This document shows, piece after piece, positions 21,092 to 56,340 of a DNA stretch of 64,000 nt (position 1 is its first letter; every line of letters starts with the position of its first letter). This DNA is from a virus. Taxonomy: Duplodnaviria > Caudoviricetes. The stretch is taken from IMG/VR virus record IMGVR_UViG_3300032007_000061, positions 1 through 64,000 of that record. One strand, written 5' to 3'. Below the pieces are notes generated by a model. It saw nothing but the letters and a program-made list of their open reading frames with translations, ran no database searches and was not told the origin of the DNA. The position numbers were made by a program, and so were the translations under genes.

Positions 21092-21463
21092 AATTTGTGT
21101 ACGATTTGTGATTTTCAGAGGTATTTGACAACAAAACTCAGGCTTTAGGAACTTGACGTTCGAAAAGAATAGATAGCACATAATTGCCTGATAATCGGAA
21201 GGTTGGCAGAGTGATCGATCGCGCTGGACTCGAAATCCGGTATACCCCTTTCGGGTATCGGGGGTTTGAATCCCTCACTCTCCGCTTTATGACACCTTCC
21301 AGCACCTCAAACGGTGCTGGATTTGGGTCAAAAACAATTTGATTATCAGTTAGTTAAGGTGTTCTACTGTTCCAACAAAAGCCTGCACCTTTTGTAAGGA
21401 AATCATATTCAAATCACCTAAAAAATGCACATTTCGTACACAAATTAGTAGCAAATTTGTGCG
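21092..21463. mobile_element. attP-like attachment region
   Basis: Inverted 12-bp AATTTGTGTACG (21092-103 / 21435-446) plus 21454-463; two inverted WATCARNNNNTTR sites (21181-193, 21344-356); tRNA in the core; integrase adjacent. Confidence 0.65.
21197..21284 (+). tRNA. tRNA-Ser(CGA), long variable arm, no encoded CCA
   Basis: Anticodon arm CTGGA-CTCGAAA-TCCGG; variable stem ATACCC/GGGTAT; T arm GGGGG-TTTGAAT-CCCTC; discriminator G. Confidence 0.85.
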
Positions 21464-21469
21464 AGTAAT

Positions 21470-22756
21470 GTGATTAAAAGCAGATTAGGTATGATTTCCA
21501 TCAACTACCAAACTTATGGAAGCAGAGGTCTGCAGCTACGTCTCAGGTTCTATCTGGACGGCCAGACCAAGTTTATTAACGTGACGAAGTTGCTGAAAGG
21601 TAACTTGGTGAAACGGCACTGGAATACCAAGAAGAAGTGTTTCTACTCCAGTGCCCCTAATGCGGATGAGAACAACCGCATACTTGAAAATTTCCGAAAA
21701 CCATACGATGAGCGTTCAAAGACATGGATTGGCACACTGGACGGTTTTATGCTTTCCTTTGATGAGACGGCCAATGAAGAGCCAGAGGAAAGGCACACTC
21801 TCAGATGGGTATTCCAGTATTTCATTGACGAAATGAAGCGCAACGGCAGGAATGATGACGGAACCATCAGTGGGGGCTATGAGCCATACGAAAAGACCAT
21901 CAAGCGCATGGAGGAATACTGCCAGGACGTTCGCATCAGTCTCGACAGCCTGACTTTGGAGGACATGACACCTCAGTTCATCAATAAGTTTCTGGAGTGG
22001 ATTGTGAATCGTGGAAATGGGAAATGTCTTTATGTCTCAGTATCTCTTCATGCCCTGCTTAACAAAAGCGATAAGATGGGCTGGTTTGACATAAAGGACG
22101 TGGAGCGATGCAATTGGTTCAAAAAGACTGGTAAGAGCACTAAGAAATATCAGACCCTTACCAATGCACAATGCAAAAGATTTGTGGCCCTGACGAAAGA
22201 AGAGCTGCCCAGAGGCCAAAATACTGAGCTATATCGTGACTTTTGCACCTTTATATTATATACGTGCCAAAGTACGTGTGATGCCGTCTCTCTCCAGTAT
22301 AAGGACATTCAGACTATCAACGGTGTTGACCATTTCGTGTTCAAGCGCAGGAAGATAGCCAGCAAGCAGTCAATTGATTGCTCTGTGCCTATCAATCCAG
22401 TCATGCGAGACATAATGAAACGCTGGAAGCCTTACTCAAAGGACGGCTATATTTTCCCGATAAGGAGCAAGGAAAGGATTGCTTCCAGTGTCATTAACAA
22501 TGGTGACATCAAGCATTTTCTCAGCAAGATCAATACCTGGTTGAAGAAAGTGACCGACATCATCAAGTGTCCTTTCCCATTGCACACATACGTCTTTAGG
22601 CATACTGGCATTACCCACTACATCAGCAAGGGCATACCAGTCATCTATGTGGCGAACCTTGCCGGAACCTCAGTTGAGAATTGCGAGAGTATCTACTACA
22701 ACAACCAAGGAGATACTACCAGCCGTGACAAGGTGCTCAATGCGATTAAATTCTAA
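21470..22756 (+). CDS. tyrosine integrase (Bacteroidetes arm-binding type; probable start ATG 21490)
   Basis: N-terminal arm-binding-like domain, SAM-like core, TYVFRHT and LAGTSVENCESIYY C-terminal motifs. Confidence 0.85.
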   Translation: MIKSRLGMISINYQTYGSRGLQLRLRFYLDGQTKFINVTKLLKGNLVKRHWNTKKKCFYSSAPNADENNRILENFRKPYDERSKTWIGTLDGFMLSFDETANEEPEERHTLRWVFQYFIDEMKRNGRNDDGTISGGYEPYEKTIKRMEEYCQDVRISLDSLTLEDMTPQFINKFLEWIVNRGNGKCLYVSVSLHALLNKSDKMGWFDIKDVERCNWFKKTGKSTKKYQTLTNAQCKRFVALTKEELPRGQNTELYRDFCTFILYTCQSTCDAVSLQYKDIQTINGVDHFVFKRRKIASKQSIDCSVPINPVMRDIMKRWKPYSKDGYIFPIRSKERIASSVINNGDIKHFLSKINTWLKKVTDIIKCPFPLHTYVFRHTGITHYISKGIPVIYVANLAGTSVENCESIYYNNQGDTTSRDKVLNAIKF

Positions 22757-53566: not shown

Positions 53567-53571
53567 AGTGT

Positions 53572-53602
53572 GCCATGCAGGGGAGTCGAACCCCTGCTTG
53601 AC
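53572..53602 (-). other. tRNA-minihelix-like T-loop hairpin B
   Basis: GTCAAGCAGGGG-TTCGACT-CCCCTGCATGGC (12-position stem, one mismatch). Confidence 0.7.
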
Positions 53603-53654
53603 GAGACTGCATAGTTATCCCGCCCCACTTATGGCTACCAGTTGGAGGTTCTTC

Positions 53655-54266
53655 TTAGAACTCCACTCTGTCCTTGCTGACCTCGATGACCTTGCGCTCG
53701 CTGCCCTCAGTCTTGACGATGTAGCAGTGCTCGATTGCGGCCCACTTGTCCTCTGCTTCCTTGGACTTCTCAGCCAGCTTCGTGTACTTGCGTGACTGGA
53801 TGAGGCCAGTGAGGATGGTGTTGACGCTCCACTTGTGCGGGTCGATGAGTGCCAGACGATAGACACTGATAGGCTTGCCGTCTGCTTTCAGGGCCTCTTC
53901 CTCGGATGCGTACACACGATAGGCAGTCTCCTTGTCGTCCTCATCCATGACATACTTTGCCGGCACGTTCTTGAAGATGTAGTTGCCCATCACCTTGTTC
54001 GAGTCGTTCACTGCCAGCATTTCCTCTCTCCACCCCCCGTTAATCAGGGCTGGGGTATAGCCCTTTTTCACACCTTTCGGCGTAACGAAGCGAGGCACAC
54101 CGTGCGCCTCCATCCAGTCCTCCACAGTAAGGCCGTCTGTCTCTGGCAGCTTTCGGGTGTAGATTCCCTCGAACTGCTTCAATACCTGCGATAACTGACC
54201 AGTCAGGTCAAGGATACCACGCTTGCCTTTGTTCTCCTGCTTCACTGTAATCTTAGTCTGCTTCAT
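53655..54266 (-). CDS. first gene of minus-strand array, hypothetical
   Basis: Start MKQTKITV (ATG 54266) right after the structured leader. Confidence 0.75.
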   Translation of the reverse strand: MKQTKITVKQENKGKRGILDLTGQLSQVLKQFEGIYTRKLPETDGLTVEDWMEAHGVPRFVTPKGVKKGYTPALINGGWREEMLAVNDSNKVMGNYIFKNVPAKYVMDEDDKETAYRVYASEEEALKADGKPISVYRLALIDPHKWSVNTILTGLIQSRKYTKLAEKSKEAEDKWAAIEHCYIVKTEGSERKVIEVSKDRVEF

Positions 54267-54533
54267 AATACTCTCGTTTGGGGAGTTGCACCCCTGGCAG
54301 TCCTTTCCTGCCCTTTTGTTAGACAATATCGGACCCATGCAGGGAGTCGAACCCTGCACAGGTCAGAGAGTATAATAGTAGTCACTTTCGTGACTGCTAA
54401 AGCTGTCGATGAACGTCTGCAACTTGTGCGCCTACAGACTTTGCACACCATCACCGCGAACCGCTGTAGCTTTGCGAGGAACCACCCCACTACGGACTAC
54501 TCATGCCTTTGAACGCAATTCGCTCATGCCGAA
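54264..54533 (-). ncRNA. candidate structured leader RNA with pseudoknot and T-loop hairpins
   Basis: H-type pseudoknot GTGTGC/GCGCAC + TCTGTAG/TTGCAGA; TAGCAGTCAC-GAAA-GTGACTACTA; 13-bp TTCGACT minihelix; GGGG-TGCAACT-CCCC. Confidence 0.6.
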
Positions 54534-54549
54534 ATATGTGCAAAGATTT

Positions 54550-56236
54550 TCCGTTTGGTCATAGCTCGCCTGTCTGAACCAGGACGCACCACTATGTACT
54601 CTTGTATCATAGATACAATACACCCCGTACCAATAGGGATTTCACCCCAACACCCGTGAGCGCACTCTATCCCCAAGGGATAGGCTGATTTACTACTTTT
54701 GCCGACAAGACACATAGTGTCCTTATATAGGCATAGCCTATTTGGTTGTCGGTTGTTTCGTGTGGTGTCGCAATAAATGAAAGAACGATTTTGAAACCGG
54801 TGGTGAACTGATTTCGAAAGCAAACATAGGTAGTTTTTCAATGCACTCCAAATTTATTTTCATGTTGTAAGTTCCTCATTTTAAAATGCTTAGATAGGTA
54901 CGTTGAGTGTGCGCGTATAAATAGGTGATGAATGTTGAAGAAAAATACACGTTTCTTTTCTGAAATGTTTACAAAAAGTGTATTAATGTTTTTTACAACG
55001 AACGATAGCGTTTGTTATAAAGATTTTTAACCAAAGAACCGAGACAAGACTAAACACATTTTTACAGAAATTAACAGACCTTAACGGTTCGCGCACGGGT
55101 TGCATAATAAGGTATAATGGTAAAAGTGAAAAAATAGACGTATAAAGAATTAAGACAAAATAGGTGTAAAGTATTTTTACCTTTAACAATTAGGTTCACT
55201 TTTGCGGAAAGTGAACCAAACGAAGGGGTCGAAATCTCTGGAAACACCAATAAATAAAGGAAAAAAGAGGGGTGGGTGTACCCTGCGGACTGGAAGCCAT
55301 ACACAAACTATTTCCGATTTTTGAATTTCGGATTTTCCCACATTTATGTCTCTTCCAGCCATTTTCAAAACACAATCTCACATTCTCACTCTCATTATAC
55401 GTCTTAAAAATAGCCCTATAGGTCGCTGGAAGCCTCTCAGATGCTTTCCCAGACCATCGCCTTAACATTTCCTCATTCCACATTAACAATCTCCTTAGAA
55501 CCATTCTTTTCAGCACCACAAATCTCATCCACTTGAACATAAGTTCAAAACCATGATGGTTCCCAGCACCAACGAAAAATCCATTTTCCCCCATAAAACT
55601 CATCTTGGATGATTCCCAAAAAATTTCTCGGCCAAAATTTCAGATTTCATTTTTGTTAAAACACATATAAAAACTCCCATATACATAAAATACCGAATAA
55701 TGCCCGAATTTCGCACAGAAACGGCCCAAATTTCGATTTTCAGGCTTTCAGCGGGCAACTACAAGGCCAGAAGCCTAAAATGCGCTCAGAACGGCTTAAA
55801 ATCGCCCGATAAATTTTTGCCGCCACAAAAACGGAACTTTGGGAGCTGGCAGAATCGAGTGGCGGCGACCAAGCTCGGCGGCGGCGCGTGGCTAATTATA
55901 CGTGACCTTTTGTTTTGCCTTTAATAGGAGAATCACTTACATGGTCTTTTGCTTACGATAGCCACATGAATATTTTATAAATAAAATGCTGGAAGTTGAG
56001 TAAGATGTTTCTTGAAAGATTCCTTTATGTTCTTAAATGCTTTCTTTTATGCCTTACGGCATGGTACTGGAAGTTATCAGATATTCTAATATTAATGCTT
56101 TTCCTATATTCCTAATGGTTACAAGAAAATAACCTATATGTTATCCTATATAGCTTTATATTTTTTATATATATTTTCTATACATCACCCCAAAAATTGC
56201 CTGAAACCCCTGTGTTTATCGGCATTTCGGCGAAAT
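54550..56236. other. 1.7-kb non-coding control region (origin/terminus candidate)
   Basis: No credible ORF; C-poor then G-poor + strand around 55285; perfect IR GGTTCACTTT/AAAGTGAACC at 55193-55217. Confidence 0.55.
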
Positions 56237-56340
56237 TTAAGACATGCACGTTTGTGCATGTCTTGATGCAAAATTGTGCATGTCTTAAATCTTTACATCA
56301 TTTTTTCAATTTAAGACATGCACAATCCTGCATGTCTTAA
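56237..56340. repeat. five-copy (TT)AAGACATGCA(C) iteron-like array in both orientations
   Basis: Copies at 56237-49(+), 56254-64(-), 56276-88(-), 56311-23(+), 56329-40(-). Confidence 0.85.

What the first reader, a model, noticed from the sequence alone, without database searches (positions are those of the whole stretch)
54264..54533. 270-nt pseudoknotted leader heading the 31-kb early arm
Seen on the minus strand after an AATCTTTG -7-like site: GAGCG/CGTTC and GTGGGG/CCTCGC hairpins, then an AAAGCT/AGCTTT + GATG/CATC helix enclosing an H-type pseudoknot (GTGTGC-aaag-TCTGTAG-GCGCAC-aag-TTGCAGA). A GAAA-capped 10-bp stem follows, then ATACTCTC/GAGAGTAT closing a domain of three hairpins right at the ATG. 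Inference: an undescribed large structured RNA (riboregulator, antiterminator or ribozyme) controlling the whole accessory arm.
Basis: partly seen in the sequence, partly recalled or inferred. Interest (0 to 1): 0.72.

Follow-up and report, generated by a model that had tools for sequence, protein, structure and literature searches.

The report
Large structured phage leader RNA
A conserved, intricately folded RNA leader of about 550 bases matches no catalogued RNA family; it opens with a host-style anti-termination signal, ends in a tRNA-like four-way junction one base before the first gene's start codon, and heads the main leftward operon of an uncultured, probably Bacteroidota-infecting, phage.

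Summary
The flagged 270 nt are real structured RNA, but they are only the 3' half of a leader of about 551 nt (window ~54817-54267, minus strand). I collected about 11 divergent lineages (45-75% identity) from metagenomes, always upstream of the same 203-aa gene. Covariation strongly supports the 3' four-way junction next to the AUG: 25 of 28 pairs have compensatory changes. It also supports a hairpin with an invariant GCGCACAAG loop.

Pseudoknot stem 1, GAGCG/CGTTC and AAAGCT/AGCTTT are replaced by a covarying long-range helix, a K-turn-like motif and further helices. The "-7 site" AATCTTTG is one strand of that long-range helix. The GAAA hairpin is a lineage-specific insert.

The real promoter is at 54852-54821, the only full TTTG-N20-TAnnTTTG site on that strand of the window. 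It is followed by a hairpin and a boxA-like element (GUUCUUUSA). The same motif lies upstream of 16S rRNA in half of the sampled Bacteroidota genomes.

Best reading: an rrn/nut-like processive-antitermination leader fused to a new large structured RNA. Its tRNA-like end probably governs processing or translation of the first gene. There is no Rfam match. Function is inferred, not shown.

The parts
54821..54852 (-). Predicted Bacteroidota-type promoter: TTTG (54852-54849), 20-nt spacer, TATGTTTG (54828-54821). The predicted start is about 54817.
   Evidence: It is the only TTTG-N18-22-TAnnTTTG match on the minus strand of the 64-kb window. The same motif lies 552-625 nt before the AUG in L002, L019, L022 and L031.
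54793..54815 (-). 5'-terminal hairpin GAAAUC...GGUUUC, in a boxB-like position just before boxA.
   Evidence: It is present in the full-leader MFE. It is kept with changes in L002 (UGAAAC/GUUUCA), L019 and L022 (GAAAUC/GAUUUC). It is not evident in every lineage.
54776..54787 (-). boxA-like element CGUUCUUUCAUU. The consensus in relatives is CGYUCUUUGA.
   Evidence: GYUCUUU(G/C)A lies 407-643 nt before the AUG in 12 of 14 lineages. GTTCTTTGAAA(A/G) lies 80-216 nt upstream of 16S in 12 of 24 Bacteroidota genomes. The gamma-proteobacterial consensus is GYTCTTTAANA (PMC5725501).
54707..54741 (-). Tandem hairpins with a UAU triloop closed by C-G: AUAGGC-uau-GCCUAU at 54741-54727 and AGGACAC-uau-GUGUCUU at 54723-54707.
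   Evidence: A pair of such hairpins occurs in every lineage. The stems are entirely different and the loop is constant. There are 29 hairpins against 2.2 expected from shuffles.
54567..54683 (-). Rest of the 5' domain. It contains hairpin CUAUCCC/GGGAUAG (54683-54667), a T-loop-like GGGGUGAAAUCCC (54648-54636), a third UAU hairpin (54618-54602), and a bulged-U hairpin GCG-U-CCUG...CAGG-CG (54587-54567). A possible ACACC/GGUGU long-range helix joins 54768 to 54650.
   Evidence: RNAalifold on six lineages and the single-sequence MFE. The bulged-U hairpin covaries (CCUG/CAGG, CCCA/UGGG, CCG/CGG, GCA/UGC). ACACC/GGUGU is invariant among the six type-1 lineages, so it is untested there.
54440..54544 (-). 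Central domain. It contains the long-range helix UUUGCACAU (54544-54536) / GUGUGCAAA (54448-54440) and a K-turn-like motif (CAUGA 54528-54524 opposite GGU-GAUG 54455-54449). It also contains helix Pb (54523-54515 / 54464-54456), hairpin Pe with conserved loop AAAGGCAU (54513-54500), helix Pc (54500-54496 / 54470-54466) and a variable hairpin Pd (54490-54474).
   Evidence: Per-sequence parse of 13 sequences. Pair counts on the type-1 clade give the long-range helix 98% paired with 4 compensatory pairs, Pb 100% with 5, Pc 97% with 3, and Pd 58%. The MFE of the whole leader recovers the same helices.
54415..54439 (-). Hairpin GUCUGUAG-GCGCACAAG-UUGCAGAC. The 9-nt loop is invariant apart from one C-to-A change in L029.
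   Evidence: There are 10 different stem versions, all paired, and the loop is constant. The hairpin abuts the long-range helix with a 0-2 nt linker.
54374..54414 (-). Variable linker that includes the GAAA-capped hairpin (54398-54377).
   Evidence: The distance from the hairpin loop to the T-loop ranges from 36 to 98 nt among lineages, and the lengths are not multiples of three. The GAAA hairpin is absent from L002, L024, L022, L025 and L004.
54268..54373 (-). 3' four-way junction. It has a closing stem (54373-54366 / 54275-54268) and H1, a 13-bp stem with tRNA-type T-loop GGUUCGACUCC (54364-54332). A linker carries UGUCUAAC (54331-54313). H2 has loop GAAAGGA (54312-54296), and H3 is a 4-bp stem with T-loop-like UGCAACU (54294-54280).
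   Evidence: H1 is 12-13 bp in 11 lineages. G-U cells outnumber A-C cells 52 to 15, which favours this strand as RNA.
53655..54266 (-). First gene of the array (P0001, 203 aa). Its AUG (54266-54264) lies one nucleotide after the closing stem.
   Evidence: Translation. There are 52 homologues and no family assignment. The AF2 model has pLDDT 93.5 and no PDB neighbour.

Best explanation
The region is the 3' half of a conserved 5' leader RNA of about 551 nt, transcribed from the minus strand.

Order of elements: a Bacteroidota-type promoter, a small hairpin, a boxA-like element, a 5' domain with tandem UAU-triloop hairpins, a central domain, and a 3' four-way junction. The central domain is closed by a long-range helix and contains a K-turn-like motif and two conserved loops (one invariant). 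The 3' junction carries two T-loops, and its closing stem ends 0-3 nt (usually 1 nt) before the AUG of a conserved 203-aa gene.

Proposed mechanism, inferred and not shown:
- boxA recruits host NusB/NusE and the other Nus factors to the polymerase, as at rRNA leaders and lambda nut sites. This would make transcription of the long, densely packed early array resistant to termination.
- The large folded RNA that follows is a phage-specific part of this leader. Its constant-loop hairpins are likely protein or tertiary-contact sites.
- The tRNA-like 3' junction sets expression of the first gene. It would do so either as a site for tRNA-processing enzymes that detach the leader right at the AUG, or as a structure that gates ribosome access to a start codon that has no Shine-Dalgarno sequence.
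For: Shown:
- The fold is significant for the 270 nt (z = -4.27) and for the full 554 nt (z = -3.93).
- Homologous leaders occur in about 11 lineages at 45-75% identity.
- Covariation supports the 3' junction, the central helices and the UAU hairpins.
- G-U exceeds A-C by 52 to 15 in paired cells, so it is RNA of this strand.
- The linker length is variable and non-triplet, and no ORF is conserved.
- Every one of 16 or more loci with a P0001 homologue has a 1.5-2.7 kb gene-free upstream region.
- There is a single full-consensus promoter on this strand, at the right place.
- boxA-like GYUCUUUGA occurs in 12/14 lineages at a constant position. It is identical to the motif upstream of 16S rRNA in 12/24 Bacteroidota genomes.
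- The AUG follows the closing stem by 0-3 nt in all lineages.
- In the L031 lineage, a second copy of the 3' module precedes another gene (E = 2.8e-6).

From established knowledge: boxA binds NusB/NusE and nucleates antitermination complexes, and can also repress translation of a downstream gene (PMC5725501).
Against:
- The window's own boxA has a C where the consensus has G (GUUCUUUCA).
- GYTCTTTSA also occurs nine more times in the window, mostly inside genes, so the 9-mer alone is weak. Its conserved position is what counts.
- The boxB-like hairpin is not evident in all lineages.
- Antitermination sites described so far are short. Nothing explains why about 480 further structured nucleotides would be needed.
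- The 3' junction is not a tRNA by ARAGORN or Rfam. H3 is separated from the closing stem by 2-4 nt, unlike a T arm.
- The partner of the invariant loop is unresolved.
Confidence: 0.5

Rival explanations
1. The folded RNA is mainly a stable, trans-acting large non-coding RNA, in the manner of the phage-associated ornate RNAs ROOL and GOLLD. It would be cut out of the 5' end of the operon transcript by tRNA-processing enzymes acting at its tRNA-like 3' module. Its job would lie elsewhere, for example as a scaffold, cage, decoy or ribozyme, and not in cis control of the operon.
For: - Its size (about 500 nt) and ornate architecture with a K-turn-like motif, T-loops and invariant loops.
- The H1 stem is 12-13 bp in 11 lineages, the length of a tRNA acceptor plus T-arm stack, with a perfect tRNA T-loop.
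- The closing stem ends about 1 nt before the AUG, so cleavage there would release a discrete RNA.
- Further tRNA-like modules lie between downstream genes.
- ROOL and GOLLD are phage-associated and lie near tRNAs (literature list; that detail is from my own knowledge).
Against: - There is no terminator or independent 3' end, and it is always fused to the same gene.
- There is no sequence or structure match to ROOL, GOLLD, OLE, HEARO or raiA in Rfam.
- No expression or processing data are available.
Confidence: 0.2
2. It is a sensing leader, either a riboswitch or a T-box-like tRNA sensor. The K-turn and T-loop elements would bind a ligand or an uncharged tRNA and switch translation of the first gene.
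For: - K-turns and T-loops are hallmarks of T-box stem I and of several riboswitches (own knowledge).
- The structure abuts the start codon.
- The loops are conserved.
Against: - No match to T-box or to any riboswitch family, even at E <= 10.
- No conserved alternative pairing that would sequester the AUG. AUG pairing is seen only in L004 and weakly in the window.
- The T-loops here cap ordinary hairpins; they do not form the interdigitated T-box module.
- The downstream gene has no metabolic annotation.
Confidence: 0.08
3. It is a DNA-level element, such as a replication origin, a packaging site, an operator array or an attachment site with tRNA-gene remnants, and not an RNA.
For: - It lies in a 2-kb gene-free zone next to iteron-like palindromes and a replication-initiator-like gene.
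- The phage has an integrase next to a tRNA-Ser gene.
- The T-loop sequence equals a tRNA 3' part.
Against: - The helices keep pairing through G-U on this strand only (52 G-U cells against 15 A-C cells).
- Stems vary freely while loops are constant, the opposite of protein operators.
- Long-range helices about 90 nt apart covary.
- The 5' strand of H1 pairs with the 'acceptor-like' strand, which a tRNA remnant would not do.
Confidence: 0.04

Closest known systems
rRNA-operon leader and lambda nut antitermination sites (boxB / boxA / boxC; NusB-NusE-NusA-NusG, SuhB or N)
   Same: A boxA-like element lies a few tens of nucleotides after the promoter, next to a small hairpin, at the head of a long transcription unit. 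The motif is the same as in Bacteroidota 16S leaders. As with lambda nutL and gene N, the site is followed by a structured leader and the first gene of the early operon (PMC5725501 discussion).
   Different: About 480 nt of conserved, covarying structure follow. No N-like protein or boxC was identified. Nus binding is untested. The window's boxA deviates at one position.
RNA-only or RNA-centred processive antiterminators (HK022 put, Bacillus EAR)
   Same: They are cis-acting folded leader RNAs, with two hairpins in put, that would act on the polymerase for a long operon. The tandem constant-loop hairpins here recall that layout.
   Different: put (about 70 nt) and EAR (about 120 nt) are much smaller. 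There is no sequence or structure similarity (EAR is in Rfam and gave no hit). put was not tested directly.
tRNA-like modules in mRNAs and long RNAs (tRNA minihelices, mascRNA of MALAT1, mitochondrial tRNA punctuation, thrS operator, yjdF riboswitch)
   Same: There is a perfect tRNA T-loop on a 12-13 bp stem, a second T-loop hairpin, and a GG-containing loop that could dock on the T-loop like a D-loop. The module is placed exactly at an RNA/mRNA boundary, so cleavage after the closing stem would leave a leaderless or near-leaderless AUG.
   Different: It is not a cloverleaf by ARAGORN or Rfam. There is no CCA and no anticodon-type loop. The long T-loop hairpin sits in the D-arm position. Processing is not shown.
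Large ornate bacterial and phage RNAs (GOLLD, ROOL, OLE, HEARO, raiA)
   Same: It exceeds 500 nt, has many conserved helices and tertiary-motif signatures, is phage-borne, is associated with tRNA-like sequence, and has unknown biochemical function.
   Different: It matches none of these families. It is fused to a coding gene as a 5' leader, behind a boxA.

Membership tests
tRNA (Rfam RF00005 / ARAGORN) | Cloverleaf with a 7-bp acceptor stem, D arm, anticodon arm with a 7-nt loop, and a T arm contiguous with the acceptor 3' strand. | tested here: not met
   ARAGORN finds only the two genuine tRNAs at 21197 and 23286. The Rfam tRNA model gives no hit in 53800-55200 even at E <= 10. H3 is separated from the closing stem by 2-4 nt.
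tRNA (Rfam RF00005 / ARAGORN) | T arm: a 5-bp stem plus a 7-nt loop UUCRANY closed by G-C. | tested here: met
   GGUUCGACUCC is present in 17 of the 18 aligned sequences at the tip of H1 (L009 and L026 deviate slightly in flanking bases).
tmRNA | tRNA-like ends, a tag reading frame and pseudoknots, as detectable by ARAGORN or Rfam. | tested here: not met
   No tmRNA call and no Rfam hit.
boxA-dependent antitermination leader (rrn / nut type) | boxA sequence matching the host consensus. | tested here: met
   GUUCUUUGA occurs in most lineages, and GUUCUUUCA in the window (8 of 9 positions). The Bacteroidota rrn leaders sampled carry GTTCTTTGAAA(A/G). The gamma-proteobacterial consensus is GYTCTTTAANA.
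boxA-dependent antitermination leader (rrn / nut type) | Promoter-proximal position in the nascent RNA, with an adjacent hairpin. | tested here: inconclusive
   boxA lies about 30 nt after the start predicted from a consensus promoter. The hairpin is present in the window, L002, L019 and L022. The start site is not measured, and the hairpin is not clear in every lineage.
boxA-dependent antitermination leader (rrn / nut type) | Binding of NusB/NusE and read-through of terminators. | not testable with these tools
   This needs binding assays and reporter or Term-seq experiments.
   Stem 2 covaries. The stem 1 strand pairs instead with 54544-54536 in all lineages, and is not complementary to the loop outside the window's clade.
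K-turn | Canonical stem, 3-nt bulge, then tandem G.A / A.G pairs. | tested here: inconclusive
   The sequence signature ...GC | GRU | GA.. opposite ..UGA | GC.. is present in the type-1 lineages and L005. Other lineages have UA in place of GA on the unbulged strand. The three-dimensional kink cannot be tested.
Known Rfam families (T-box, riboswitches, ROOL, GOLLD, OLE, HEARO, raiA, EAR, self-cleaving ribozymes) | Score against the family covariance model. | tested here: not met
   Nothing reaches gathering thresholds in the window. Nothing relevant appears at E <= 10 in 53800-55200, or at E <= 0.5 in 10 homologous loci.

The most novel reading that the evidence does not exclude
A new class of large ornate phage RNA in which a Nus/boxA antitermination leader is fused to a tRNA mimic. 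Host tRNA-processing enzymes (RNase P or RNase Z) would cut precisely at the start codon. That would be tRNA punctuation producing leaderless mRNAs in phages of Shine-Dalgarno-poor Bacteroidota. Alternatively, the tRNA-like junction would recruit or position the ribosome directly, in an IRES-like manner. Related T-loop modules between downstream genes would do the same along the operon.
Probability: 0.2. Interest if true: 0.9.

Novelty: new variant of a known kind. Interest (0 to 1): 0.7.

Why it matters
Conserved RNAs of more than 500 nt with complex structure are rare, and several have turned out to be ribozymes or unusual assemblies. This one comes from phages of gut and rumen Bacteroidota-type hosts, whose transcription and translation signals differ from the textbook models. 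Those hosts use no Shine-Dalgarno sequence and their own promoter type.

If the boxA reading holds, it would be the first nut-like antitermination system described for such phages, and it would give a handle on how they express 30-kb early arrays. If the tRNA-like end is processed or read by the translation machinery, it would reveal a new way to start translation or to punctuate operons in bacteria.

The family is well enough defined (about 11 lineages, a covariance model and a clear architecture) to be tested at once by structure probing, RNase P/Z and NusB/E assays, and reporters.

Tried and rejected
- blastn against 50,697 phage records: no match.
- IMG/VR scans with exact 3'-domain strings: only one close relative.
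- Pattern scan of 185,579 species genomes: one hit, which is an ordinary tRNA neighbourhood in a Flavihumibacter MAG (12.6 bits). No prophage copy in reference genomes was found with that pattern.
- Rfam: nothing.
- P0001 function: no Pfam or PHROG family, no Foldseek or VIA-align PDB neighbour for a confident model, and no usable Atlas hit.
- Partner for the invariant GCGCACAAG loop. GUGYGY at window 54663-54657 fits in four lineages at one alignment column, and UGUGCC fits in five others at a different column. No single conserved partner was found, so this stays unresolved.
- An alternative pairing of UGUCUAAC with the 5' strand of H2 appears in some sequences. It is not possible in the CCCUUG-type lineages, so I rejected it as a conserved switch.
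- Coding explanation. Stop-free stretches of 56-144 codons exist in single leaders, but they are not conserved in frame or length, and the indels are non-triplet.
- Literature search for a boxA variant with UUUGA found nothing in the held library. I tested this directly on Bacteroidota rrn leaders instead.

Full report
**What is at the coordinates**

The segment folds far better than shuffled versions (-102.5 kcal/mol, z = -4.27, 0/200). The ATG is at 54266-54264 and opens a 203-aa ORF, P0001. Neither Rfam (gathering thresholds on the whole window; E <= 10 on 53800-55200) nor ARAGORN reports anything there. The window is an IMG/VR virus record of 79.9 kb.

**Relatives**

- blastn against phage records found nothing, and IMG/VR held one close relative.
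- P0001 has 52 homologues in metagenome protein collections. I fetched the DNA around 11 of them. Every locus has a 1.5-2.7 kb gene-free region upstream of the gene.
- A degenerate pattern built from the conserved loops retrieved one more locus from IMG/VR and 11 loci from JGI metagenomes, of which 10 were true relatives.
- This gives 16 distinct full-length upstream sequences in about 11 lineages at 45-75% nucleotide identity.
- The same pattern found no copy in 185,579 species genomes, apart from a chance tRNA.

**The 3' domain is real**

- In every lineage, a closing stem of 6-9 bp encloses three hairpins.
  - H1 has 12-13 bp and is capped by the tRNA T-loop GGUUCGACUCC.
  - A single-stranded linker carrying UNUNUAAC follows H1.
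  - H2 has 5-6 bp and a loop containing AAGG.
  - H3 has 4 bp and a loop U-R-N-R-A-N-U, the T-loop pattern.
- A covariance model (R1) realigned 18 sequences.
  - 88.1% of cells pair, against 63.4% in shuffles.
  - 25 of 28 pairs have changes on both sides.
  - The covariation score is 0.614, against 0.20 for shuffles and <=0.215 for slid controls.
  - That alignment is fitted to the model. The independent loop-anchored parse shows the same stems.
- G-U cells outnumber A-C cells 52 to 15, so the pairing belongs to RNA of this strand.
- The AUG follows the closing stem by 0-3 nt, usually by a single U.

- UCUGUAG/UUGCAGA is a genuine hairpin. It has 10 stem versions, all paired, and its 9-nt loop GCGCACAAG is invariant apart from one C-to-A change in L029.
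- The proposed partner of the loop, GUGUGC, instead forms a 6-9 bp long-range helix with UUUGCACAU at 54544-54536. The helix has nine different versions, all complementary. Within the window's clade it is 98% paired with four compensatory pairs.
- Inside that helix are several further elements:
  - a K-turn-like motif: stem, a GRU bulge, then GA opposite ..UGA;
  - a short hairpin presenting the conserved loop AAAGGCAU;
  - helix Pc;
- The GAAA-capped stem and the 3' strands of AAAGCT/AGCTTT and GATG/CATC lie in a linker whose length ranges from 36 to 98 nt. They are absent from several lineages.

**The RNA is about twice as long as reported**

- Conservation with relatives extends to about 54790.
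- Every lineage carries two tandem hairpins with a UAU triloop closed by C-G, whose stems share no sequence. There are 29 such hairpins against 2.2 expected.
- A bulged-U hairpin also covaries.
- Folding 54817-54264 alone recovers nearly all the comparative helices (z = -3.93).

**Start of the transcript and boxA**

- The only full Bacteroidota-type promoter (TTTG-N18-22-TAnnTTTG) on the minus strand of the 64-kb window is at 54852-54821. The same motif lies 552-625 nt before the AUG in four other lineages.
- A small hairpin (54815-54793) and then CGUUCUUUCA (54787-54778) follow the promoter.
- GYUCUUU(G/C)A sits 407-643 nt before the AUG in 12 of 14 lineages, including distant ones.
- I checked the motif against hosts of the likely phylum. 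In 12 of 24 Bacteroidota genomes with enough upstream sequence, GTTCTTTGAAA(A/G) lies 80-216 nt upstream of the 16S 5' end.
- The gamma-proteobacterial consensus is GYTCTTTAANA (PMC5725501).
- The 9-mer alone is not specific: there are 10 matches in the window against 3.9 expected. The argument rests on its conserved position.

**Interpretation**

- Shown: a conserved, covarying leader RNA of about 551 nt. It matches no catalogued family and is always fused to the same first gene.
- Inferred: it is an rrn/nut-like processive-antitermination leader, with boxA plus a hairpin at the 5' end. It carries a novel large folded RNA whose tRNA-like 3' junction governs processing or translation at the adjacent AUG.
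- The parallel with lambda nutL and gene N is notable. There, a boxA site is followed by a structured leader and then the first early gene, and Nus factors also repress translation. P0001 itself has a confident model with no known fold.
- Modular use supports a function tied to gene starts. The L031 lineage has a second copy of the H2-H3 module before another gene. A different conserved T-loop element lies between genes 1 and 2.
- Rivals are a processed trans-acting ornate RNA, a sensing leader and a DNA element. The last is disfavoured by the G-U asymmetry and by the pattern of constant loops with variable stems.

**Limits**

- No expression data could be obtained.
- The host is inferred from the promoter type, from the integrase domains and from the boxA variant.
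- The tertiary partners of the two conserved loops remain unresolved.
- Whether the leader controls the whole 31-kb array is untested.

Noticed in passing
window 53567-53654 (-): A second conserved structured element lies between gene 1 and gene 2. It reads GGUA, then a 5-6 bp stem (GCCAU...AUGGC here; GCCGU/ACGGC, GCGUG/CACGC, GCAAGU/ACUUGC and GCGAG/CUCGC in relatives), with a hairpin stacked directly on the 3' strand, followed by ACAA/ACAC. The hairpin carries a tRNA T-loop in 5 lineages (53597-53577 here) and other loops in 6. The layout is tRNA acceptor/T-arm-like, and the element ends 5 nt before the next ATG in the window.
   Followed up: partly
L031:4416-4559 (also L014, L016, L032): A second copy of the leader's 3' module sits 11 nt before the ATG of another gene about 1.4 kb downstream (R1 E = 2.8e-6). 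It has the UUUUUAAUC linker, H2 with a UAAGGAG loop and H3 with a UGAGAGU loop. H1 is replaced by a branched stem with a T-loop-like hairpin.
   Followed up: partly
window 56220-56340 (-): Repeated palindromes TTAAGACATGCA..TGCATGTCTTAA lie directly downstream of two small genes. One of these genes weakly matches a replication-initiator-O-like PHROG (E = 2e-4). They look like iterons or an origin at the far end of the 2-kb gene-free zone.
   Followed up: no
window 55193-55217 (-) and block 55130-55336: A 10-bp hairpin GGUUCACUUUCCGCAAAAGUGAACC lies inside a block conserved across L004, L005, L007, L009 and L011, about 400 nt upstream of the leader promoter. L007 keeps it as GUUUCACUUACUGCAAAAGUGAAAC. 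It may be a terminator of the upstream unit or a regulatory site.
   Followed up: no
window 21197-21285 (+) and 21470-22756 (+): A tRNA-Ser(CGA) gene lies immediately upstream of a tyrosine integrase with Arm-DNA-bind_5 and SAM_5 domains. This suggests a temperate phage with its attachment site at or near the tRNA.
   Followed up: no
window 53655-54266 (-): P0001, the first gene behind the leader, is conserved (52 homologues). It gives a confident AlphaFold model (pLDDT 93.5) but has no Pfam or PHROG family and no PDB structural neighbour. It is a candidate for a leader-binding or antitermination protein.
   Followed up: partly
window, whole: GYTCTTTSA occurs 10 times against 3.9 expected (0/100 shuffles reach 10). 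Four copies are on the minus strand within the early array (25168, 40394, 42333, 54778). It is unclear whether these are extra boxA sites or a codon-bias effect.
   Followed up: no
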